Below are positions 1,284 to 46,151 of a stretch of 64,000 nucleotides of DNA, piece after piece. Where the stretch lies: assembly GCF_003334305.1 (NCBI RefSeq), contig NZ_QOWS01000004.1; one strand, written 5' to 3'. Every line of letters starts with the position of its first letter. The stretch's first letter is position 1. This stretch comes from Escherichia coli (GTDB taxonomy: Bacteria > Pseudomonadota > Gammaproteobacteria > Enterobacterales > Enterobacteriaceae). Made by a program: the position numbers and the translations under genes. The notes under the pieces were generated by a model. That model made no database searches. It saw only the letters and a program-made list of their open reading frames with translations, and was not told the DNA's origin.

Positions 1284-1619
1284 CTACCCAATCAGTACGT
1301 TAATTTTGGCTTTAATGAGTTGTAATTCCTCTGGGACAACCGTTCCTTTCTTCGTTGCTCCTCTTGCCCGCCAGGCGATACTTTTTACCTGATCAGCTAA
1401 CGCTACGCCATCACGTTCCTGACCGGATAAAACAACTTCGAACGGATATCCTTTTGATTGCGTTGTACAAGGAACACACAGACACATACCTGTTTTGTTG
1501 TTGTACATGAAAGGACTCAGGACAACAGCTGGACGATGTCCAGCTTGCTCGCTACCTTTTGTCGGGTCAAAATCAACACAAATCAGATCGCCCATATCGG
1601 GTACGTATCGGCTTACCAT
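1284..1619 (-). CDS. mazF: Type II toxin MazF (mRNA interferase, ACA-specific endoribonuclease)
   Basis: 111-aa [16 protein letters not shown]...INVLIG, recognised as E. coli MazF; start overlaps mazE stop by 1 nt. Confidence 0.96.
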   Translation of the reverse strand: MVSRYVPDMGDLICVDFDPTKGSEQAGHRPAVVLSPFMYNNKTGMCLCVPCTTQSKGYPFEVVLSGQERDGVALADQVKSIAWRARGATKKGTVVPEELQLIKAKINVLIG

Positions 1620-13529: not shown

Positions 13530-14312
13530 TTAGGAACTTATCTCTCCATCCTGACCCGATGGCGCACTGAACTCAACCCTTTCATTTTCAGGAAGCAGAC
13601 CGCGCCAGCCAAATTGTGATAACGCCTGCATCCAGGTGTCGTCCAGGCCCGCGTGAATAGTCAGCGGCTCGCCAGTAAAAGGATGCGTCAATGACAACTG
13701 ACTGGCATGTAGCATTAACCGCTGGAGGCCAAAATGCTCAGCACCGCTGCGATTCTGGCGTAAATCGCCATGTTTGCTATCGCCAATAATCGGATGACGC
13801 AAATGGGCAAGATGTCGGCGAAGCTGATGTTTGCGTCCGGTTTTCGGCTCCAGTTCCACCAGGCCGTAGCGCGTGGTCGGGTAACGTCCGGTCGCTACCG
13901 GCATTTCTACGGTCGCCAGACCGCGATAATGCGTCACTGCTGGCTGCGAGCCTTTATCTTCGCGGGCAAATTTATCAGCGATTTTGTCCAGTTCTTCCAC
14001 CAGTGGATAATCCAGAACTGCTTCTTCCATCAACCAGCCGCGCACAATCGCATGGTAACGTTTCTGGATTTGGTGCTGTTCAAACTGTTGTGCCAGCAGC
14101 CGTCCGGCCTCGCTGGATAATCCCATCAACAACACACCAGAAGTGGGTCGGTCCAGACGATGAGCGGTAAAAACGTGCTGGCCAATCTGATCACGCACGG
14201 TTTGCATGACCACTACTTTCTCGTCGCGATCCAGCCAGCTGCGGTGAACCAGCCAGCCGGAGGGTTTATTTACCGCAACCAGCCATTCATCCTGATAGAG
14301 TATTTCCAGCAT
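13530..14312 (-). CDS. truC: tRNA pseudouridine(65) synthase TruC
   Basis: 260-aa [28 protein letters not shown]... with the RluA-family catalytic motif [12 protein letters not shown]. Confidence 0.93.
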
Positions 14313-18200: not shown

Positions 18201-18757
18201 TCTCCCCCTCCCCCGGTGACGTTTGTTGCCGGGTTTTCTCGTTTTTGGTCACTTACTCATCAACTCATTTCATTTGTTATATGAATGTTTCTTACCACCC
18301 TCACGCGACAAATATCATCACAGTTAATATGTCATACAATTTATGTTGCAACGCAAACGTTTCCCTATTTTCATAAACCGTATTTTATCGCTATGAAAAA
18401 GAAATTATCGCCATGATTAACTAAAAGTATTGATTTTTTCAGTTCAACCTACATATATTGCGCGCCCCGGAAGAAGTCAGATGTCGTTTAATGGGCAAAT
18501 ATTGCCCTTAAATTCTCTTTTACTTTTGATTTACAGAGTAAAGCGTTGGGATAATCTATCTTCCAAGTAGATTATTGTATTTGAGATCAAGATCACTGAT
18601 AGATACATAACTTGTGTGTATCTTTCCGCCCTCAAATTATTACGGCGGTAAATGATTAAGCCATCGCCGATAGACAGATTTCATTTTTACGGTCAGGCAC
18701 CTTCCCGGGCTGAACTGGCTAAAAGCTGAATTATTTGCATTCCTCCAGGAGAAATAG

Positions 18758-20047
18758 ATGGAAACGACTCAAACCAGCACGATTGCGTCGAAAGACTCTC
18801 GTAGTGCCTGGCGCAAGACAGACACCATGTGGATGCTGGGCCTTTACGGCACGGCAATCGGCGCGGGCGTGCTGTTCCTGCCAATCAACGCCGGTGTTGG
18901 CGGTATGATCCCGCTGATCATCATGGCTATCCTTGCGTTCCCGATGACATTTTTTGCACACCGCGGCCTGACTCGCTTCGTACTGTCTGGTAAAAACCCG
19001 GGCGAAGACATCACCGAGGTTGTAGAAGAACACTTTGGTATTGGCGCAGGTAAACTGATTACCCTGCTCTATTTCTTCGCTATCTACCCGATCCTGCTGG
19101 TTTATAGCGTAGCAATCACCAATACAGTTGAAAGCTTCATGTCTCACCAGCTGGGTATGACACCACCGCCGCGTGCGATTCTGTCGCTGATCCTGATCGT
19201 GGGTATGATGACCATCGTTCGCTTCGGTGAGCAGATGATCGTTAAAGCGATGAGTATTCTGGTATTCCCGTTTGTTGGCGTACTGATGCTGCTGGCTCTG
19301 TACCTGATCCCGCAGTGGAACGGCGCAGCACTGGAAACGCTGTCTCTGGACACTGCATCTGCAACCGGGAACGGTTTGTGGATGACCCTGTGGCTGGCAA
19401 TTCCGGTAATGGTGTTCTCGTTCAACCACTCTCCGATCATCTCTTCTTTCGCCGTTGCGAAGCGTGAAGAGTACGGCGATATGGCAGAACAGAAATGCTC
19501 GAAGATCCTTGCATTCGCACACATCATGATGGTGCTGACCGTAATGTTCTTCGTCTTCAGCTGCGTACTGAGCCTGACTCCGGCAGACCTGGCTGCGGCT
19601 AAAGAGCAGAACATCTCGATTCTGTCTTACCTGGCTAACCACTTTAACGCACCGGTTATCGCGTGGATGGCTCCGATTATCGCGATTATCGCTATCACCA
19701 AATCCTTCCTCGGCCACTACCTGGGCGCACGTGAAGGCTTCAACGGTATGGTGATTAAATCTCTGCGTGGTAAAGGTAAGTCTATCGAAATCAACAAGCT
19801 GAACCGTATCACTGCGCTGTTCATGCTGGTAACGACCTGGATTGTTGCCACCCTGAACCCGAGCATCCTGGGTATGATTGAAACCCTGGGCGGCCCAATC
19901 ATCGCGATGATCCTGTTCCTGATGCCGATGTACGCAATTCAGAAAGTACCGGCAATGCGTAAGTACAGCGGTCACATCAGCAACGTATTCGTTGTCGTGA
20001 TGGGTCTGATTGCAATCTCCGCAATCTTCTACTCTCTGTTCAGCTAA
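18758..20047 (+). CDS. sdaC: Serine:H+ symporter SdaC
   Basis: 429-aa polytopic membrane [49 protein letters not shown]... (HAAAP family); RBS ggag 8 nt upstream. Confidence 0.96.
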
Positions 20048-20055
20048 GTCCTTTC

Positions 20056-20090
20056 GCGCCGCTTTCGGGCGGCGCTTCCTCCGTTTTAAC
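20056..20090 (+). other. GC-rich hairpin in sdaC-sdaB spacer (possible partial terminator or processing/attenuation element)
   Basis: gcgccgctttcgggcggcgc forms a 7-bp stem with a tttcgg loop, followed by ttcctccgtttt; it lies between two co-oriented genes of one operon. Confidence 0.4.
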
Positions 20091-20104
20091 GCGATGTATT
20101 TCCT

Positions 20105-21472
20105 ATGATTAGCGTATTCGATATTTTCAAAATCGGCATTGGCCCTTCCAGTTCTCATACCGTTGGACCAATGAAAGCGGGTAAACAATTTACCGACGAT
20201 CTGATTGCCCGTAACCTGCTTAAAGACGTGACCCGCGTGGTGGTTGACGTGTACGGCTCGCTCTCTCTGACCGGTAAAGGCCACCACACTGATATCGCCA
20301 TTATTATGGGCCTGGCGGGTAACCTGCCGGATACCGTGGATATCGATTCCATCCCCGGTTTTATTCAGGATGTGAATACTCATGGTCGCCTGATGCTGGC
20401 AAACGGTCAGCATGAAGTGGAGTTCCCGGTTGATCAGTGCATGAACTTCCATGCCGACAACCTTTCTCTGCATGAAAACGGTATGCGCATTACCGCACTG
20501 GCGGGCGATAAAGTCATTTACAGCCAGACTTACTACTCTATCGGCGGTGGCTTTATCGTTGATGAAGAACATTTTGGCCAGCAGGATAGCGCACCGGTTG
20601 AAGTTCCTTATCCGTACAGTTCAGCAGCCGATCTGCAAAAACATTGTCAGGAAACCGGGCTGTCACTCTCTGGCCTGATGATGAAAAACGAGCTGGCGCT
20701 GCACAGCAAAGAAGAGCTGGAACAGCACCTGGCGAACGTCTGGGAAGTCATGCGCGGCGGTATTGAGCGCGGTATTTCTACCGAAGGCGTGTTGCCTGGC
20801 AAACTGCGCGTACCACGCCGTGCTGCGGCACTACGCCGGATGCTGGTCAGCCAGGATAAAACCACCACTGACCCGATGGCGGTTGTTGACTGGATCAACA
20901 TGTTTGCACTGGCAGTGAACGAAGAGAACGCCGCTGGCGGTCGCGTGGTGACTGCGCCGACTAACGGTGCGTGCGGGATTATCCCGGCTGTGCTGGCGTA
21001 CTACGATAAGTTTATCCGCGAAGTGAACGCTAACTCACTGGCTCGTTACCTGCTGGTAGCCAGTGCCATTGGTTCTCTTTATAAGATGAACGCGTCAATT
21101 TCTGGTGCTGAAGTCGGCTGCCAGGGTGAAGTTGGTGTGGCGTGCTCAATGGCGGCGGCTGGTCTGGCAGAACTGTTAGGTGCAAGCCCGGCGCAGGTGT
21201 GCATCGCGGCGGAAATCGCCATGGAGCACAACCTCGGTCTGACGTGTGACCCGGTCGCCGGACAGGTCCAGGTGCCATGCATCGAGCGTAACGCCATTGC
21301 GGCAGTAAAAGCGGTGAACGCCGCACGTATGGCGCTACGCCGTACCAGCGAGCCGCGCGTCTGCCTCGATAAAGTTATCGAAACCATGTACGAAACAGGT
21401 AAAGATATGAACGCCAAGTACCGCGAAACCTCTCGCGGCGGCCTGGCAATGAAGATCGTTGCCTGCGATTAA
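20105..21472 (+). CDS. sdaB: L-serine dehydratase 2 (L-serine deaminase, Fe-S)
   Basis: 455-aa ORF MISVFDIFKIGIGPSSSHTVGPMKAGKQFTDDL..., recognised as E. coli SdaB. Confidence 0.96.
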   Translation: MISVFDIFKIGIGPSSSHTVGPMKAGKQFTDDLIARNLLKDVTRVVVDVYGSLSLTGKGHHTDIAIIMGLAGNLPDTVDIDSIPGFIQDVNTHGRLMLANGQHEVEFPVDQCMNFHADNLSLHENGMRITALAGDKVIYSQTYYSIGGGFIVDEEHFGQQDSAPVEVPYPYSSAADLQKHCQETGLSLSGLMMKNELALHSKEELEQHLANVWEVMRGGIERGISTEGVLPGKLRVPRRAAALRRMLVSQDKTTTDPMAVVDWINMFALAVNEENAAGGRVVTAPTNGACGIIPAVLAYYDKFIREVNANSLARYLLVASAIGSLYKMNASISGAEVGCQGEVGVACSMAAAGLAELLGASPAQVCIAAEIAMEHNLGLTCDPVAGQVQVPCIERNAIAAVKAVNAARMALRRTSEPRVCLDKVIETMYETGKDMNAKYRETSRGGLAMKIVACD

Positions 21473-30671: not shown

Positions 30672-31772
30672 TTATCGCTCGTCGCGACGACCACCCACCG
30701 CAGCCCAGATGCGGCGGACGTGCACCGTCACTTCTTCGCGATCGTGATACAACTGCCGCGCCTGAATCTGAGCATTTATGCCATGTTCATCAAGCTGTGC
30801 CTGAATATACGCCAGATTGTGTGACACTTCTTCGTAGCGTTTTTTCATCGGCAGTTTGAGGTTGAAAATGGTTTCACGACACCAGCCATTAACCAGCCAC
30901 TGCGCCATCAATGCCGCAACTTTCGCCGGTTTTTCAACCATATCGCATACCATCCAGGAGATATTGCTGCGCGTCGGACGGAATTTGAAACCATCTTCCC
31001 GCAGCCACGTCACCTGTCCGGTATCCATCAGACTTTGCGCCATCGGGCCGTTGTCGACGGAATAAACCCACATGTTGCGCTTCACCAGTTGGTAGGTCCA
31101 GCCGCCAGGGCAAGCGCCTAAATCCACCGCCCACATCCCGTTCGCCAGGCGTTCATCCCACTCATCCGCAGGAATAAACACATGAAATGCCTCTTCCAGT
31201 TTGAGCGTGGAACGACTCGGCGCATCTGCCGGAAATTTCAGGCGCGGAATGCCCATATAGAACGGCGAATTATTGTTGCTGTATGAGTAACCGGTATAGC
31301 AGCAGCCTGGTGCAATAAAGAATACATGCACAACCGGACGCTTCGGCGTTTCATAGTTCGCCAGCACCCCAGCATCGCGCAAGGCAGCGCGTAGCGGAAC
31401 AGTGAATTTACGGCAGAATTTCAGCAACTCTTTGCTTTCGTTGGTATCGGCAACTTCAACACGCAGTTCACCGCCCTTCTCTACTACGCCCTGTAACATG
31501 CCGACAATGGGGGTAATACGATCTTCTGGCGGCAAATGCTGCAGGAGCTCCCCCACCACAAACCACTGGCGGGCAAAAATTAATGAACTGAACGGCAGCT
31601 CACGGATTAACTTATCGCCATCATCAGGTTGATAACATTCATAAATGACATAACCCGCATTCTCTTTCACGCGGGCAAAACCGAAAATTTCCCGCTGGCC
31701 GGCTTTATCGGTAATTTCTGCGGCGCACTCTTTTTCAAAGCCCGGACGGCACAGCAATACAACCTTATTCAT
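30672..31772 (-). CDS. rlmM: 23S rRNA (cytidine2498-2'-O)-methyltransferase RlmM (YgdE)
   Basis: 366-aa [51 protein letters not shown]... with a THUMP-like N-terminus and a methyltransferase fold. Confidence 0.93.
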
Positions 31773-33865: not shown

Positions 33866-35071
33866 ATGAACGTTTTTAATCCCGCGCAGTTTCGCGCCCA
33901 GTTTCCCGCACTACAGGATGCGGGCGTCTATCTCGATAGCGCCGCGACCGCGCTTAAACCTGAAGCCGTGGTTGAAGCCACTCGACAGTTTTACAGCCTG
34001 AGCGCCGGAAACGTCCATCGCAGCCAGTTTGCCGAAGCCCAACGCCTGACCGCGCGTTATGAAGCTGCACGAGAGAAAGTGGCGCAATTACTGAATGCAC
34101 CGGATGATAAAACTATCGTCTGGACGCGCGGCACCACTGAATCCATCAACATGGTGGCACAATGCTATGCGCGTCCGCGTCTGCAACCGGGCGATGAGAT
34201 TATTGTCAGCGTGGCAGAACACCACGCTAACCTCGTCCCCTGGCTGATGGTCGCCCAACAAACTGGAGCCAAAGTGGTGAAATTGCCGCTTAATGCGCAG
34301 CGACTGCCGGATGTCGATTTGTTGCCAGAACTGATTACTCCCCGTAGTCGGATTCTGGCGTTGGGTCAGATGTCGAACGTTACTGGCGGTTGCCCGGATC
34401 TGGCGCGAGCGATTACCTTTGCTCATTCAGCCGGGATGGTGGTGATGGTTGATGGTGCTCAGGGGGCAGTGCATTTCCCCGCGGATGTTCAGCAACTGGA
34501 TATTGATTTCTATGCTTTTTCAGGTCACAAACTGTATGGCCCGACAGGTATCGGCGTGCTGTATGGTAAATCAGAACTGCTGGAGGCGATGTCGCCCTGG
34601 CTGGGCGGCGGCAAAATGGTTCACGAAGTGAGTTTTGACGGCTTCACGACTCAATCTGCGCCGTGGAAACTGGAAGCTGGAACGCCAAATGTCGCTGGTG
34701 TCATAGGATTAAGCGCGGCGCTGGAATGGCTGGCAGATTACGATATCAACCAGGCCGAAAGCTGGAGCCGTAGCTTAGCAACGCTGGCGGAAGATGCGCT
34801 GGCGAAACGTCCCGGCTTTCGTTCATTCCGCTGCCAGGATTCCAGCCTGCTGGCCTTTGATTTTGCTGGCGTTCATCATAGCGATATGGTGACGCTGCTG
34901 GCGGAGTACGGTATTGCCCTGCGGGCCGGGCAGCATTGCGCTCAGCCGCTACTGGCAGAATTAGGCGTAACCGGCACACTGCGCGCCTCTTTTGCGCCAT
35001 ATAATACAAAGAGTGATGTGGATGCGCTGGTGAATGCCGTTGACCGCGCGCTGGAATTATTGGTGGATTAA
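33866..35071 (+). CDS. csdA: Cysteine desulfurase / cysteine sulfinate desulfinase CsdA
   Basis: The ORF track begins at 33830; the recognised protein begins [35 protein letters not shown] at the ATG at 33866 (401 aa), preceded by the RBS gagga. PLP-dependent class V aminotransferase fold. Confidence 0.94.
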
Positions 35072-37545: not shown

Positions 37546-37712
37546 TGTTCTCTTCTTCAGGTTAAAAAATAAGGCGCAACGAAGATAACAAACCGCCGCG
37601 TTTAATGAAATGAGCAGCCTCTCCCTGACGCAAATTTTGCACAAAAAATAGGCTTTAGTGATTTGTTTTTGTTCAAAATCATGCCAAATCCGTGATCGGG
37701 GTAAAAAAAAGG

Positions 37713-37740
37713 TTGCATGAAAACGCGAGCGGAGTATAGT
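37713..37740 (+). promoter_or_regulatory. Sigma70-type promoter for the tRNA-fMet gene
   Basis: TTGCAT (-35), a 16-bp spacer, then TATAGT (-10), followed by a GC-rich discriminator (gcgc) about 10 nt before the tRNA 5' end; this is typical of a stringently controlled stable-RNA promoter. Confidence 0.6.
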
Positions 37741-37753
37741 GCGCATCCACGGA

Positions 37754-37830
<77 letters not shown>

Positions 37831-37837
37831 ATTATTG

Positions 37838-37864
37838 AACACCCTAACGGGTGTTTTTTTGTTT
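37838..37864 (+). terminator. Rho-independent terminator downstream of tRNA-fMet
   Basis: aacaccc taac gggtgtt stem-loop followed by TTTTTTTGTTT. Confidence 0.7.
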
Positions 37865-37874
37865 CTGCTCTCCC

Positions 37875-37903
37875 AAAAAAAAAGCGCCATTCAGCGCCTT
37901 TTT
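37875..37903. terminator. Bidirectional terminator-like hairpin between the tRNA and the amiC 3' end
   Basis: aaaaaaaaa GCGCCATTCAGCGCC ttttt: a short GC stem flanked by an A-run and a T-run, so it can act in both orientations; it ends 2 nt before the amiC stop codon. Confidence 0.5.
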
Positions 37904-37904
37904 A

Positions 37905-40782: not shown

Positions 40783-42609
40783 TTATTCCCGTGAACTAAA
40801 CAACGCCGCCAGACCACTGCGCCGCTCAGTACGAGTGGCGATTGCCGCACTTAATATGCGCTCATCGGCATACAGCGACAGACGGCGACGCGCGCGGGTC
40901 ACCGCGGTATAAACCAGCTCTCGCGTTACTACCGGCGTGCGTTGGCTCGGCAAAATCAACGCCGCATGGTCGAACTCCGATCCCTGCGATTTATGTACCG
41001 TCATCGCCCACGTAGTTTCGTGCTCTGGCAAGCGACTCGGTTGCACAGACTTAATATTGCCGTCCGGCATCGCAAACCAGACGCGCGTCCCCTGCCCGCG
41101 ATCCAGCGCAATACCGATATCGCCATTAAACAACCCAAGCGCGCTGTCATTACGGGCAATCATCACCGGTCGACCTTCGTACCAACGAGAGTGCGGATGA
41201 CGATGAATTTTGCGCTTCTGTTGCATAAACTGCTCAATTCGCTCATTCAGTCCAGCCACGCCAAACGGCCCTTCCCGCAGGGCGCACAAAAGCTGGTACT
41301 CATTGAACGCCTGAATGATTAAATCCGGCTCGGCACGCGCTTGCAGCAGATCCAGATAACGTCCGTAACCCGCAAGAGCTTCCTCAAGCATCGCAATATA
41401 ATCTTCGCCGCTCTGTAAAAGCCGTTTTTCGATATCAGTAAAATCCTGCTGAAAAACGGTTTTCACTGCCGTTTTATCACCACGGTTGATCGCCGCAGCT
41501 AACTGACCAATGCCAGAATCGCTGCCGAAACGATAGCTTTTTTGCAGCAGGCAGAGACTGTCGCGCAAAGATGCCGCTTCTGTGCCGGTTCCTGCCGGAA
41601 CGTGAGTCCCCGTCAGGCGGCTTAGCTGCCCGGCACGCTCGGCGGTAAAGCCGGCATTGGCATAAGCGCAGATATCGCCCAGCACAGCCCCAGCCTCAAC
41701 CGAGGCCAGTTGATCACGATCGCCGAGAAAGATCACTCGCGCATGATCGGGCAAGGCGTCGATCAGTCTCGACATCATAGGCAGATCGATCATTGACGCT
41801 TCATCTACCACCAGCACATCAAGATGCAGCGGGTTACCGGCATGATGACGTAAACGCTGGCTACCCGGCTGCGCACCCAGCAATCGGTGCAAAGTACTGG
41901 CATCTTCCGGAATGCGTTTCTTTTGTTCATCGGTCAGCGGTAACTGTCGCAAAGCCTTGCCGAGAGATTCGGTTAAGCGCGCGGCAGCTTTACCCGTTGG
42001 TGCAGCCAGACGGATACGGCAGCGTTCGCCGTCGGCCATTTGAATTAACGCTGCCAGTAACTTCGCCACGGTGGTCGTTTTACCGGTGCCTGGGCCGCCG
42101 GAAATCACCGAGATCCGCCGCGTCAGCGCCACTGCCGCTGCAACTTTTTGCCAGTTAATTTCATCGCTTACTGGAAAAAGTTTGTCCAGGGTTTGCGCCA
42201 GTAGAGCTTCATCAACCTCAATGGCATGATTCACCTCATTGAAGAAGCGCGCTACCGTCCGCTCGTTACACCACATGCGATTCAAATAAAGACGATCGCC
42301 ACAGAGGATCATCGGCGTGGGTTCATCTCCCCTGCTGACTGCTTGAGAAGCCAGCAAGCATTCTTCCCAATTTTGTAGCTCACCGATTTCACTGACACAG
42401 GTCGCCAACAGCGGATGCGACGCCTCGTTATTTTCCAGTCGTGAAAGCGGCAAACAGACGTGTCCCTCTCCGGCATCATGACTTAACAGTGCCGCCGCGA
42501 GGGTGACGGCAGGATGTTCATCTCCCGCCACGGTCAGGGCAAATTGCACATCCAGCGGGCGTAGCTGTTTGTGCTCCACAGCTTCCAGTAATTGCTTTTG
42601 CAATTTCAT
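40783..42609 (-). CDS. recD: Exodeoxyribonuclease V alpha subunit (RecD helicase)
   Basis: 608-aa [32 protein letters not shown]... with Walker [10 protein letters not shown]. Confidence 0.96.
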
Positions 42610-45600
42610 TACGCCTCCTCCAGGGTCATACCGGCAAACATCTCATCCATCAGGGCAATCAACCCGGCGTTGGGTCGGGTTGTGTAAATCCCTTGTTGCG
42701 GATGTTCTTTATCAACGCCACGCAGGAACAGATAGATAACGCCGCCAAAGTGACGATCATAGTCGTAATCAGCAATGCGATGGCGCAGATAACGATGCAG
42801 CGCCAGGGTATAAAGCTGATATTGCAGATCATAGCGGTGTGCCTGCATCGCTGCTGCCATAGCCTGTTGGGTGTAAGCCGAACTGTCTTCACCCAGCCAG
42901 TTGGATTTATAGTCGAGCAGGTAATAACGCCCTTCGTGGCGGAATACCAGGTCGATAAAGCCTTTTAACATGCCGCGTACCTGCATGAACTCCAGCGGCG
43001 GGCAGCCAGCGGATAGCGGGTCAAACTGGCGAATTAGTGCATCAAGCTGGCTGGCGATGAGCGGTTCGCTAATCGGCAGGTAAAACTCCATCTCCACCTG
43101 TTTATCGCGGTCGGAAAGCTGACTCAGGCTAACACCCGTTTCATTGAGAGATGCCTGGAGGACAGCCGTGATCCACTCGGTCAACACCGGTTCCCACTGC
43201 GATTCAAAGCCGCCGAGTTCCAGTTTTTCCTGTACCCAGTTCGGGTCAACCGGCCGGGTAAAATCGAGGTCTTCAAACAAACTGTGCAAGAATGTCCCCG
43301 GTGACGCACCGCGCGGGAACTGATGCGGTGTTAACGTCGGTTCTTCAACGACGCTGACCACGCCTGCGGCATCAACATCCAGCCGTGGCATCAGATCCTG
43401 AGCGATACCGTGACCACGCTGCTGCAAGCCGGAGTAGCTGGTGACACGCCAGTTATCGCCGGGCAATCGTTGTAGTGTCCTCGCATTCAGTTCTGCAGTT
43501 AAAGCATCATTAACCTGCCAGGGCTGGTTATCACCAGTTTGTGCCGTTTGCCAGGCAATATCATCATCGCATAACGCTTCAATACAGGTGCGAAGCCCTG
43601 CCGCATCTTGCGGTTCCCCTTTTTGCAGCAAACGCCCGAGCGCACTTTGGTGGACGTCGGTGTCACCTTTTTTATCGCCACGACGGCGCACCAGCGGTGC
43701 AACGCCGAGACTACAATGCCAAACCGAACGCGTCAGCGCCACGTAAAGCAAACGCAGATCTTCCGCCAGACGTTCGGCCTCCGCGAGATCGACACTTTCT
43801 GGCACAGCGTTAAGATCCAGAACAGCCTCAAACGAGTGTCGATCGTGATAAAACGCCTGATCCTGGACGCGGAAATTGGTAATAAATGGCAACCAGACCA
43901 GCGGATATTCCAGCCCTTTCGATTTATGTATCGTGACAATCTGCACCAAATGTTTGTCGCTTTCGAGGCGCATTTGTTGGCTGGAGGCATTACTGTCTGG
44001 CTCGAGGATATGTTGCGATAACCAGCGTACCAGCGCATGTTCACTTTCCAGCTGCGTTCCGGCTTCTTGTAGCAGTTCGCTGATATGCAAGATATCGGTA
44101 AGACGCCGCTCACCGCCTGCCGTTGCCAGCAAGTTTTCTGCAATGTTACGCGCCGACATCAGCGCCCGCAGCATCGGCATAACGCCACGTTTGCGCCAGA
44201 TTTGCCGATAACCATCGAACTCTTCGACTACCGCATCCCACGCATGTTCGTCATTATTCAGCGTTTCAATATCCAGCGCATTCAGCCCCATCATTGACGT
44301 TGCCAGCGCACTGCGCAGGGTGTTCTCACGTTCGGGCGTCATCACCGCCTGCAACAACCAAAGCATTTCCTGCGCTTCCAGAGTTTCAAAAACACTGTCG
44401 CGGTTCGAAAGGTAAACGGAAGGGATTTCCAGCAACGTTAAGGCATCGCGCACCTGGGCGGCCTCCTGGCGGCTGCGCACCAGCACGCTGATGTCCGAAG
44501 CACGCACCGAACGCGCGTCGTCGCCGTTCATCAGCAACGCTTCGCCCCGCTGTCCGGCTTGTAGCCAGTCGCGGATTTGCGCAGCACATACCTGCGCCAT
44601 GGTACTTTGATAGTCGCCAACGCCGCAGCTTTCGCCTTCCATCAGCCACATTTTCATCGCAGGCTGCGTTTCACCTTTAAATACAAAACGTAACGCCTGA
44701 TTTTTCCCGGCTGATTTCACTGGAATAAACGGTATTTCGCGAAACATGAACGCGTCATCAGTCTGGCTGAAAAGCTTATTCACGCTGTTCACCATTCCTG
44801 GTGCGGAACGCCAGTTGGTGTCTAAAGTGTAGTGGGCGTGAACTTCGCTACGCGCCTTCATATAAGTGAAGATATCCGCACCCCGGAATGCATATATGGC
44901 CTGTTTCGGGTCGCCAATTAGCAACAATGCGGTTTCCGGCTGATGGTGCCAGATACGGCGAAAAATTCGGTACTGCTGGGGGTCGGTATCCTGAAATTCA
45001 TCGATCATTGCCACCGGGAATCGCGTACGGATCGCCGCTGCCAACACCTCACCGCTTTCGCTACGCAGCGCGGAATCGAGCCGACTTAACATGTCATCAA
45101 AACCCAATTCGCCACGGCGGCGTTTTTCACGCGCTACTGTTTCGCGGATCTCAGCCAATGCGCGGGTGATCACCAGATCGCGGATCGACAATGGTTCTGC
45201 AAGCAGTTGATCGATCGCCTCAAACAGTGGATGTCGCGGGGTTTCCCCCCCGGCTTTCGTGCGATCTTCTAAGAAACGCTGGGAGAATTTTTCCAGCGAC
45301 TCTGGCAACTGATAACTGTTGGTCTCTTCTTCTGCCCAGGCGCTGATCTTTTCGATCCATTTAGCCTGATTACTACGGTTAAACTTGCGTCGATCAATAC
45401 CAGAAGATTCGATCAGCGCATCCAGTTCACCCACTGCGTCGCGCCACTGCTGTTTTACCGTATCAATACGCGCCACAATTTGCGCGTGGCGGGAAGCCAG
45501 CGTTTCATCATCGGGCGGCGGTGCTTTGATAACCGGCGCTTCGCCTTGCAGATAACGATTAATATCGCGCAGCAACGCCTGCGGCCCTTTCCAGGTTTCA

Positions 45601-46151
45601 AAGACGACCTGGGCTATTTCACGCGGCAGCGGGTAGCAGTGGCGACGCCAGAAATCGGCGCAGGCCTGGTAGCGTAGCAGAGACTCATCTTCAATCAGCT
45701 GCTGCTCAAACAGCATACCGGATTCAAAGGCATTCAGGTTGAGCATGCGCTGGCAAAAACCGTGAATAGTAAAGACTGCCGCTTCATCCATCTGCCGTTC
45801 GGCTAACAACAACCACTGCGCGGCTTGCGCTTTATCGTCGATCTCTTCCAGCAGGCGTTCGTACAGTGGATTGTCGGTGGTTTCACGCAGACAGGCGATG
45901 CGCAACTCGTGGATATTGCTACGGATACGACCGCGCAATTCTGCCGTGGCAGCCTCGGTAAAGGTGACCACCAGCAGTTCTTCAACGGTCAGCGGGCGGG
46001 GAAAGGCGGCGGAACCGCCTAGTCCAAGTAACAGGCGCAAATAGAGCGCCGCAATCGTAAAGGTTTTGCCTGTGCCGGCAGAGGCTTCAATCAGGCGCTC
46101 GCCCTGTAAGGGCAAGCGCAAAGGATCTAGTGTCTCGGCGACATCACTCAT
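42609..46151 (-). CDS. recB: Exodeoxyribonuclease V beta subunit (RecB helicase-nuclease)
   Basis: The ORF track begins at a GTG (46160); the recognised protein begins [41 protein letters not shown] at the ATG that is the reverse complement of 46149-46151, giving 1180 aa. Confidence 0.96.

What the first reader, a model, noticed from the sequence alone, without database searches (positions are those of the whole stretch)
46144..46151. Pervasive stop/start overlaps indicating translational coupling (recB/ptrA, ppd genes, rlmM/ygdD, mazEF, yqcC/truC, csdAE)
Several adjacent genes overlap: ptrA ends 8 nt inside recB; ppdA/ppdB overlap 10 nt, ppdB/ygdB 4 nt, ygdB/ppdC 16 nt; rlmM/ygdD 8 nt; mazE/mazF, yqcC/truC, csdA/csdE and recD/recB overlap by 1 nt. 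ptrA is a periplasmic protease nested between the recBCD subunits yet is not functionally related to them, which makes the recB–ptrA overlap notable.
Basis: seen in the sequence. Interest (0 to 1): 0.3.

Follow-up and report, generated by a model that had tools for sequence, protein, structure and literature searches.

The report
Ordinary stop/start gene overlaps in E. coli
The short overlaps between neighbouring genes are real, but they occur at the normal E. coli rate and are already catalogued; the ptrA/recB overlap probably lets ribosomes finishing ptrA restart weakly on recB, an idea already published but never directly tested.

Summary
The window is the E. coli chromosome from mazG to lplT. 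That includes ptrA/recB, which share ATGAGTGA on the minus strand at 46144-46151.

They are not unusual in number. Ten of 40 same-strand neighbour pairs (25%) lie in the -8 to +6 nt spacing class, against 24% genome-wide in E. coli (p = 0.48). Overlaps of 1, 4 and 8 nt are the three known enriched spacings. Eight of the nine pairs appear with identical distances in a 2023 supplementary table.

The ptrA/recB case is already described. A 2025 eLife paper states that the recB ribosome-binding site lies inside ptrA and suggests translational coupling. It also shows that deleting an Hfq site in the ptrA leader doubles RecB output per mRNA.

New here:
- The overlap is kept in 78 of 80 Enterobacteriaceae species (4 nt in 43, 8 nt in 32, 20 nt in 3) and in four further Enterobacterales.
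- The recB Shine-Dalgarno (SD, ribosome-binding) match is weak in all 80 Enterobacteriaceae species.
- recB/recD always overlap, behind what looks like a strong SD wherever I checked.

The most likely mechanism is low-efficiency termination-reinitiation. Verdict: real, ordinary, already known.

The parts
46144..46151 (-). ptrA stop / recB start overlap, ATGAGTGA (-8 spacing, NTGNNTGA class)
   Evidence: identical in K-12 and in at least 96% of 5,426 E. coli genomes
46152..46162 (-). recB translation-initiation region inside the ptrA coding sequence (GAGUGAAAAGA). Very weak Shine-Dalgarno complementarity: -2.5 kcal/mol, the fifth weakest of 52 genes in the window
   Evidence: weak SD in all 80 Enterobacteriaceae species
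46144..49032 (-). ptrA (pitrilysin / protease III), the upstream cistron
42609..46151 (-). recB, the downstream cistron. Its N-terminus MSDVAETL matches the deposited RecB chains
49047..49082 (-). 36-nt Hfq-binding segment of the ptrA 5'UTR. Its deletion doubled RecB proteins per mRNA in the published experiment
   Evidence: exact match found; experiment in PMC12342828
42609..42621 (-). recB stop / recD start junction: GGAGGAGG SD (42621-42614) then TAATG with a 1-nt overlap at 42609. This is the strongest SD in the window (-12.1 kcal/mol)
   Evidence: -4 or -1 overlap in 76 of 76 resolvable species
40783..42609 (-). recD, third cistron of the ptrA-recB-recD operon
1619..1619 (-). mazE/mazF 1-nt overlap (TAATG)
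   Evidence: listed as -1 in PMC10666635 suppl.
14312..14312 (-). yqcC/truC 1-nt overlap (TAATG)
31765..31772 (-). ygdD/rlmM 8-nt overlap (ATGAATAA)
   Evidence: -8
35071..35071 (+). csdA/csdE 1-nt overlap (TAATG)
   Evidence: -1
52897..52912 (-). ygdB/ppdC 16-nt overlap
   Evidence: -16; the ppdC start gives the leader [10 protein letters not shown]|FSLPE
53301..53304 (-). ppdB/ygdB 4-nt overlap (GTGA)
   Evidence: -4
53855..53864 (-). ppdA/ppdB 10-nt overlap
   Evidence: -10; the ppdB start gives the leader MPVKEQG|FSLLE

Best explanation
These are ordinary operon junctions of the kind found at about a quarter of same-strand gene pairs in E. coli. At the flagged site, ptrA, recB and recD are read from one mRNA. 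A ribosome translating ptrA runs over the recB AUG and terminates at the UGA 5 nt downstream of it. A small fraction of the terminating ribosomes then slip back and restart at the recB AUG (termination-reinitiation). The recB Shine-Dalgarno match is very weak, so little initiation is expected from free ribosomes. RecB output would therefore be a small, fixed fraction of ptrA translation, which fits fewer than 10 RecB molecules per cell. It would also explain why repression by Hfq at the ptrA ribosome-binding site, 2.9 kb upstream, is passed on to RecB. recD is then coupled to recB through a 1-nt overlap behind a strong SD, which suits equal amounts of two subunits of one enzyme. Shown: the geometry, the weak SD, the conservation, the single operon and the Hfq-site effect (the last two from the literature). 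Inferred: that reinitiation, not independent initiation, supplies most recB translation.
For: Geometry: -8 spacing ATGAGTGA, one of the three spacings enriched in all prokaryotes and counted as reinitiation-compatible. Weak SD: -2.5 kcal/mol, fifth weakest of 52 genes, against -12.1 for recD. In 80 species the recB SD stays between -2.2 and -6.9 kcal/mol; the window genes average about -6. The one clear recC/recB -1 junction outside Enterobacterales has a strong SD of -10.6. Conservation: ptrA lies directly upstream of recB in all 80 Enterobacteriaceae species. The overlap is 4 nt in 43, 8 nt in 32 and 20 nt in 3, with a +2 gap in one and a +413 gap in one. The geometry has changed between clades but stayed tight. 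No sigma-70-like promoter was found near the 3' end of ptrA. [quoted passage not shown] I located that site at 49047-49082. Precedent: translational regulation passed to a downstream gene by coupling, rplK to rplA (PMC12548453).
Against: The papers I read report no experiment that places a premature stop in ptrA and measures RecB; PMC12342828 does not measure PtrA. The Hfq result could come from the second Hfq site inside recB or from altered mRNA fate, since recB mRNA halved in that mutant. An 8-nt overlap reinitiates less well than -4 or -1. One of five tested E. coli overlapping pairs (bioBF) initiated independently despite a weak SD. The recB start region is not locked in a predicted structure that would block free ribosomes: z = 0.13, with SD and AUG unpaired in the minimum-energy fold. 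A second calculation gave a mean unpaired probability of only 0.31, so the structure evidence is inconclusive. An overlap may persist simply because nothing selects for a spacer.
Confidence: 0.55

Rival explanations
1. The overlaps are neutral by-products of compact genomes. recB is initiated independently by free 30S subunits at its own weak site, and the low RecB level simply reflects the weak SD and scarce mRNA. The overlap itself does nothing.
For: The density of overlaps equals the genome average. SD strength and predicted accessibility of overlapped starts do not differ from other genes in the window (Mann-Whitney p = 0.99 and 0.96). SD and AUG are unpaired in the minimum-energy fold. 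The bioBF precedent shows uncoupled initiation at an overlap. In Intestinirhabdus alba ptrA and recB are separated by a 413-nt insert.
Against: 82 of 84 Enterobacterales junctions remain overlapped while switching between -4, -8 and -20. The species with the 413-nt gap has a better recB SD, GAGGA at -5.8 kcal/mol, as expected if uncoupling needs compensation. Deleting an Hfq site 2.9 kb upstream, at the ptrA ribosome-binding site, changes RecB translation efficiency.
Confidence: 0.3
2. Coupling exists but works by RNA unfolding. The recB start is masked by pairing with ptrA coding sequence, and ribosomes translating ptrA open it for new 30S subunits.
For: The mean unpaired probability of the recB initiation region is 0.31 in a -70..+40 window, in the lower part of the window's distribution. 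This is one of the two accepted models of coupling (PMC12548453).
Against: The 130-nt junction folds no better than shuffled sequence (z = 0.13; 107 of 200 shuffles fold at least as well), and SD and AUG are unpaired in the minimum-energy structure. The result depends on the window chosen. No conserved pairing partner was identified.
Confidence: 0.1
3. The overlaps are annotation artefacts. The true starts lie downstream, so the genes do not overlap.
For: Most starts in this window, especially ygdB (GTG), ppdB and ppdC, have no N-terminal sequencing evidence that I could access.
Against: The recB N-terminus M-x-D-x-A aligns across 80 species, with an in-frame stop 3-12 nt upstream of the ATG in 64 of them. 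Deposited RecB chains of 1180 residues start at MSDVAETL. The ppdA, ppdB and ppdC starts give 6-10-residue leaders before the G|(F/Y)(S/T)L(I/L/P)E prepilin motif. RefSeq PGAP and the K-12 table agree on the distances.
Confidence: 0.03

Closest known systems
[quoted passage not shown] 2019, PMC6728339)
   Same: [quoted passage not shown]
   Different: Those pairs have -4 spacing and were tested with premature-stop reporters. ptrA/recB has -8 spacing in Escherichia, a much weaker SD, and no direct test that I found.
The -8 NTGNNTGA spacing class (Huber et al. 2023, PMC10666635; Brown & Wade 2025, PMC12548453)
   Same: ATGAGTGA (ptrA/recB) and ATGAATAA (ygdD/rlmM) are exact instances. Both pairs are already listed at -8 in the paper's E. 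coli table.
   Different: Nothing structural. The papers note lower reinitiation efficiency at -8 than at -4 or -1.
Transfer of translational regulation by coupling, rplK to rplA (reviewed in PMC12548453)
   Same: A repressor acting at the upstream gene's ribosome-binding site also controls the downstream gene. Here that would be Hfq at the ptrA site controlling RecB.
   Different: rplK and rplA are functionally related and the coupling was demonstrated. ptrA and recB are unrelated and coupling is only inferred.
Classic coupled operon junctions trpE/trpD, trpB/trpA and galT/galK (Oppenheim & Yanofsky 1980; Schumperli et al. 1982; cited in PMC12342828)
   Same: Stop/start overlap or near-abutment within an operon. 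recB/recD (-1, strong SD, two subunits of one enzyme) is the closest analogue in this window.
   Different: In those cases the aim is roughly equal output of partner proteins. At ptrA/recB the likely outcome is strong attenuation.

Membership tests
Translationally coupled overlapping gene pair (termination-reinitiation) | Both genes on the same strand and on one transcript | tested here: met
   Same strand. No promoter-like site near the 3' end of ptrA. The ptrA-recB-recD operon is stated in PMC12342828.
Translationally coupled overlapping gene pair (termination-reinitiation) | Stop-to-start spacing within about -8 to +6/+10 nt | tested here: met
   -8 for ptrA/recB and ygdD/rlmM; -4 for ppdB/ygdB; -1 for mazEF, yqcC/truC, csdAE and recBD. 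ppdA/ppdB (-10) and ygdB/ppdC (-16) fall outside this range.
Translationally coupled overlapping gene pair (termination-reinitiation) | Translation of the downstream gene depends on translation of the upstream gene reaching the junction (premature-stop test at constant mRNA level) | not testable with these tools
   Needs an experiment. The only indirect evidence is that deleting the Hfq site in the ptrA 5'UTR doubles RecB per mRNA.
Translationally coupled overlapping gene pair (termination-reinitiation) | SD motif for the downstream gene inside the upstream coding sequence (usual, but not essential) | tested here: inconclusive
   recB -2.5 kcal/mol (very weak), truC -3.3, ygdB -4.1, csdE -4.9, rlmM -5.2, mazF -6.9, ppdC -8.3, ppdB -8.5, recD -12.1. 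Huber 2019 found the SD requirement varies from essential to none.
Coupled pairs that encode subunits of one complex | The two products form a heteromeric complex | tested here: not met
   This row scores the flagged ptrA/recB pair: a periplasmic protease and a cytoplasmic helicase-nuclease, marked 'CMPLX not' in PMC10666635. recB/recD and mazE/mazF are marked 'CMPLX yes' in the same table.
RNA-unfolding type of translational coupling | The downstream start region is sequestered in a stable structure with upstream coding sequence | tested here: inconclusive
   z = 0.13 with SD and AUG unpaired in the minimum-energy fold, but mean unpaired probability 0.31 in another window.

The most novel reading that the evidence does not exclude
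In Enterobacterales ptrA may have been kept between recC and recB because it acts as a long 'throttle' reading frame. On this view RecB synthesis depends entirely on rare reinitiation by ribosomes finishing ptrA, so Hfq (and perhaps a small RNA) acting at the ptrA ribosome-binding site sets the mean and the noise of an enzyme present at fewer than 10 copies per cell. The shift from the widespread -4 junction to the -8 junction with an even weaker SD in Escherichia, Salmonella and Citrobacter would then be a further turn-down of RecB. The out-of-frame AUG in UGAUG at the ptrA stop could act as a decoy restart site.
Probability: 0.2. Interest if true: 0.4.

Novelty: already known. Interest (0 to 1): 0.12.

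Why it matters
It matters little as a discovery. The overlaps are standard, previously tabulated features of the E. coli genome, and the ptrA/recB coupling idea is already in print. The useful residue is a sharper, testable point. The published model has Hfq blocking the ptrA ribosome-binding site to lower RecB, and that only works if recB translation depends on ptrA translation. The comparative data here fit that dependence: the overlap is kept in 82 of 84 Enterobacterales, the recB SD is weak in all 80 Enterobacteriaceae species, and the one species with a long spacer has a better recB SD. One premature-stop experiment would settle it.

Tried and rejected
1. Enrichment of overlaps in this window: rejected. 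10/40 against 24% genome-wide gives p = 0.48, and 9/51 against 15% gives p = 0.35.

2. Stronger SD or lower accessibility at overlapped starts than at other starts in the window: no difference, p = 0.99 and 0.96.

3. A stable RNA structure masking the recB start: not supported (z = 0.13), but a second window gave a lower accessibility, so this stays inconclusive.

4. An internal sigma-70 promoter for recB in the 3' part of ptrA: none found. The only hit is 2.5 kb upstream, and hits were fewer than in shuffled sequence. The scan is crude. A published sigma-28 SELEX site lies inside recB upstream of recD, not upstream of recB.

5. Ribosome-profiling or proteomic numbers for PtrA against RecB: Li et al. 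2014 and Schmidt et al. 2016 are not held in the library, and a text search found nothing usable.

6. The 1986 Finch et al. sequence papers, which from memory first reported the ptr/recB and recB/recD overlaps, could not be retrieved. That priority claim rests on my own recollection only.

7. Mis-annotated starts: rejected for recB and the prepilin-like genes.

Full report
**Identity of the window.** A 2.5-kb segment around the flagged site matches all 5,426 complete E. coli genomes and is 100% identical to several, including strain H15, where it is annotated ptrA (pitrilysin) and recB. I fetched the RefSeq annotation of H15 for the whole stretch and mapped each coding sequence onto the window with BLAST. 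The window runs from mazG to lplT and holds 52 complete protein genes.

**The observation.** On the minus strand the junction reads ...CCCCUGAUGAGUGAAAAGA AUG AGU GAU GUC....
- The recB ATG is at 46151-46149 and the ptrA TGA at 46146-46144, so the two genes share the 8 nt ATGAGTGA at 46144-46151.

- For recB, the N-terminus M-x-D-x-A aligns across 80 species, and 64 of them carry an in-frame stop only 3-12 nt upstream of the ATG.
- Deposited RecB chains of 1180 residues begin MSDVAETL.
- The ppdA, ppdB and ppdC starts give 6-10-residue leaders followed by the G|(F/Y)(S/T)L(I/L/P)E prepilin motif.
- ygdB, rlmM, truC, csdE, mazF and recD have no alternative start further upstream.

**Is it more than chance?** It is not, in the sense of being unusual for E. 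coli.
- Huber et al. 2023 count 707 of 2,987 same-strand pairs (24%) at -8 to +6 nt in E. coli K-12. The window has 10 of 40 (25%), binomial p = 0.48.
- Nine of 51 adjacent pairs overlap, against about 15% typical of prokaryotes, p = 0.35.
- The spacing classes themselves are strongly non-random genome-wide: -4, then -1, then -8 (NTGNNTGA) are the three enriched spacings in bacteria and archaea.
- The supplementary E. coli table of that paper already lists eight of these nine pairs with identical distances, including ptrA/recB at -8 marked as not forming a complex. I did not query yqcC/truC there.

**What is already published on ptrA/recB.** Kalita et al. (eLife 2025, PMC12342828) make these points.
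- ptrA, recB and recD form one operon.
- PtrA is a periplasmic protease unrelated to repair, and its gene probably entered by horizontal transfer.
- The main Hfq cross-link peak lies next to the ptrA ribosome-binding site.
- Deleting 36 nt of the ptrA 5'UTR raised RecB proteins per mRNA from 7.9 to 16.3.

That 36-mer is at 49047-49082 on the minus strand of the window. [quoted passage not shown] It requires recB translation to depend on ptrA translation, but PtrA was not measured and no premature-stop test is reported.

**New comparative evidence for ptrA/recB.** A scan of one genome per species with the first 300 residues of RecB returned 80 Enterobacteriaceae species at 76-99% identity.
- ptrA lies immediately upstream of recB in all 80, and recC lies upstream of ptrA in 77.
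- The junction is a 4-nt overlap (ATGA) in 43, mainly Enterobacter, Klebsiella, Raoultella, Kluyvera and Lelliottia.
- It is an 8-nt overlap in 32 (ATGAATGA 20, ATGAGTGA 12): Escherichia, Salmonella, Citrobacter, Phytobacter and some Kosakonia.
- It is a 20-nt overlap in 3 (two Kosakonia species and Enterobacter sp. Bisph1), a +2 gap in one, and a 413-nt insert in Intestinirhabdus alba.
- Vibrio rotiferianus and two other genomes at 50-53% identity have recC directly before recB and no ptrA.
- So -4 looks ancestral for the ptrA/recB junction and -8 derived. The geometry has changed several times but stayed overlapped in 82 of 84 genomes. One further error-ridden long-read contig (L089) was left out of this count.

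**recB/recD and the recC-ptrA spacer.**
- recB/recD overlap in all 76 resolvable species (-4 in 65, -1 in 11). A GGAGG-like SD was present in every junction I printed, about one in four of them.
- The recC-ptrA spacer is 110-185 nt in all but three species.

**Signals at the recB start.**
- Pairing of the 20 nt upstream of recB with the 16S rRNA tail gives only -2.5 kcal/mol, the fifth weakest of the 52 genes in the window. recD has the strongest, -12.1 (GGAGGAGG).
- The weak recB SD holds across species: mean -3.0 in the -8 group and -4.7 in the -4 group, never beyond -6.9.
- The species with the 413-nt spacer has GAGGA (-5.8). The one clear recC/recB -1 junction outside Enterobacterales has -10.6.
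- No sigma-70-like promoter is predicted near the 3' end of ptrA.
- The junction RNA folds no better than shuffled sequence (z = 0.13), and SD and AUG are unpaired in the minimum-energy structure. A partition-function calculation in a different window gave a mean unpaired probability of 0.31. A structure-based mechanism is therefore neither supported nor excluded.

**Mechanism.**
- The best-supported reading is low-efficiency termination-reinitiation. Ribosomes finishing ptrA at UGA, 5 nt past the recB AUG, occasionally restart on recB. Free ribosomes rarely start there because the SD is poor.
- This would make RecB a small fixed fraction of ptrA translation, consistent with fewer than 10 molecules per cell. 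It would also pass Hfq control at the ptrA ribosome-binding site on to RecB, as regulation passes from rplK to rplA.
- recD follows recB through a -1 overlap with a strong SD, as expected for two subunits of one enzyme. Pairs at -8 to +10 nt are 4.5-fold enriched for complex subunits in E. coli.
- I put this reading at about 0.55. Independent weak initiation with a functionally neutral overlap is about 0.3, supported by the bioBF precedent and the lack of any special feature of overlapped starts in this window. Coupling by RNA unfolding is about 0.1, and mis-annotation about 0.03.
- For the other pairs, -1 and -4 junctions are good coupling candidates on general grounds. The -10 and -16 ppd overlaps are weaker ones, because coupling declines with longer overlaps. 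I found no direct test for any of them.

**Comparison and novelty.**
- The junctions are exact members of the known -1, -4 and -8 spacing classes. Membership of the functional class 'translationally coupled pair' cannot be established without the premature-stop test.
- The overlaps are tabulated in PMC10666635, and the ptrA/recB coupling suggestion is in PMC12342828.
- From my own recollection, the ptr/recB and recB/recD overlaps were noted when the genes were first sequenced (Finch et al., Nucleic Acids Res. 1986). I could not retrieve those papers.
- The finding is therefore already known. The small addition is the cross-species picture of a persistently overlapped junction with a persistently weak SD.

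**Verdict.** The finding is ordinary and already described, so interest is low.

Noticed in passing
window 37754-37830 (+), mltA-amiC spacer 37546-37904: There is only one initiator tRNA-Met gene here, where strain H15 has three tandem copies. The K-12 spacing in a published table (amiC-mltA 578 nt against 359 here) also fits three copies. The window is about 220 nt shorter at this locus than H15. In a spread sample of 5,426 E. coli genomes, only the top 2 of 40 rows cover the spacer in one piece (strain A7 is 100% identical), so the single-copy form looks rare.
   Followed up: partly
window 18731-20572 (-), opposite sdaC (18758-20047) and the start of sdaB: A 613-codon open reading frame runs antisense to sdaC. 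It exists because sdaC has no TTA, CTA or TCA codon in 429 codons. The window-wide rate of those codons is 2.3%, giving a naive P of about 4e-5. The first 156 codons of sdaB have none either. This is probably extreme codon bias and not a gene, but I did not test that.
   Followed up: partly
window 1284-1619 (-), mazF: The MazF encoded here differs from the crystallised K-12 MazF (3nfc, 5ck9) at two positions, W14C and A97V.
   Followed up: no
window 46142-46146 (-): The ptrA stop is part of UGAUG. An out-of-frame AUG (46144-46142) opens a 5-codon frame, MSPRH-stop, and could compete with recB for reinitiating ribosomes. It arises from the RecB Asp3-Val4 codons. It is present in Escherichia, Salmonella and Citrobacter but absent in Phytobacter and Kosakonia.
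   Followed up: partly
L026 3587-4001 (Intestinirhabdus alba): This is the only species of 80 with a long (413-nt, GC-rich) insert between ptrA and recB. Its recB has a better SD (GAGGA). I did not examine what the insert is.
   Followed up: no
L001 39004-39011 (just beyond the window end at lplT): lplT and aas overlap by 8 nt, another -8 junction in the same neighbourhood.
   Followed up: no
window 52577-52588 (-), ppdC stop to recC start: recC starts only 12 nt after ppdC. A published table taken from EcoCyc lists a ppdAB-ygdB-ppdC-recC transcript, so recC may be co-transcribed with the prepilin-like genes.
   Followed up: no
inside recB, about 500 nt upstream of recD (K-12 coordinate 2952958): A genomic SELEX study lists a sigma-28 holoenzyme binding site inside recB, oriented towards recD. 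It may be an internal promoter for recD (PMC5493296).
   Followed up: no
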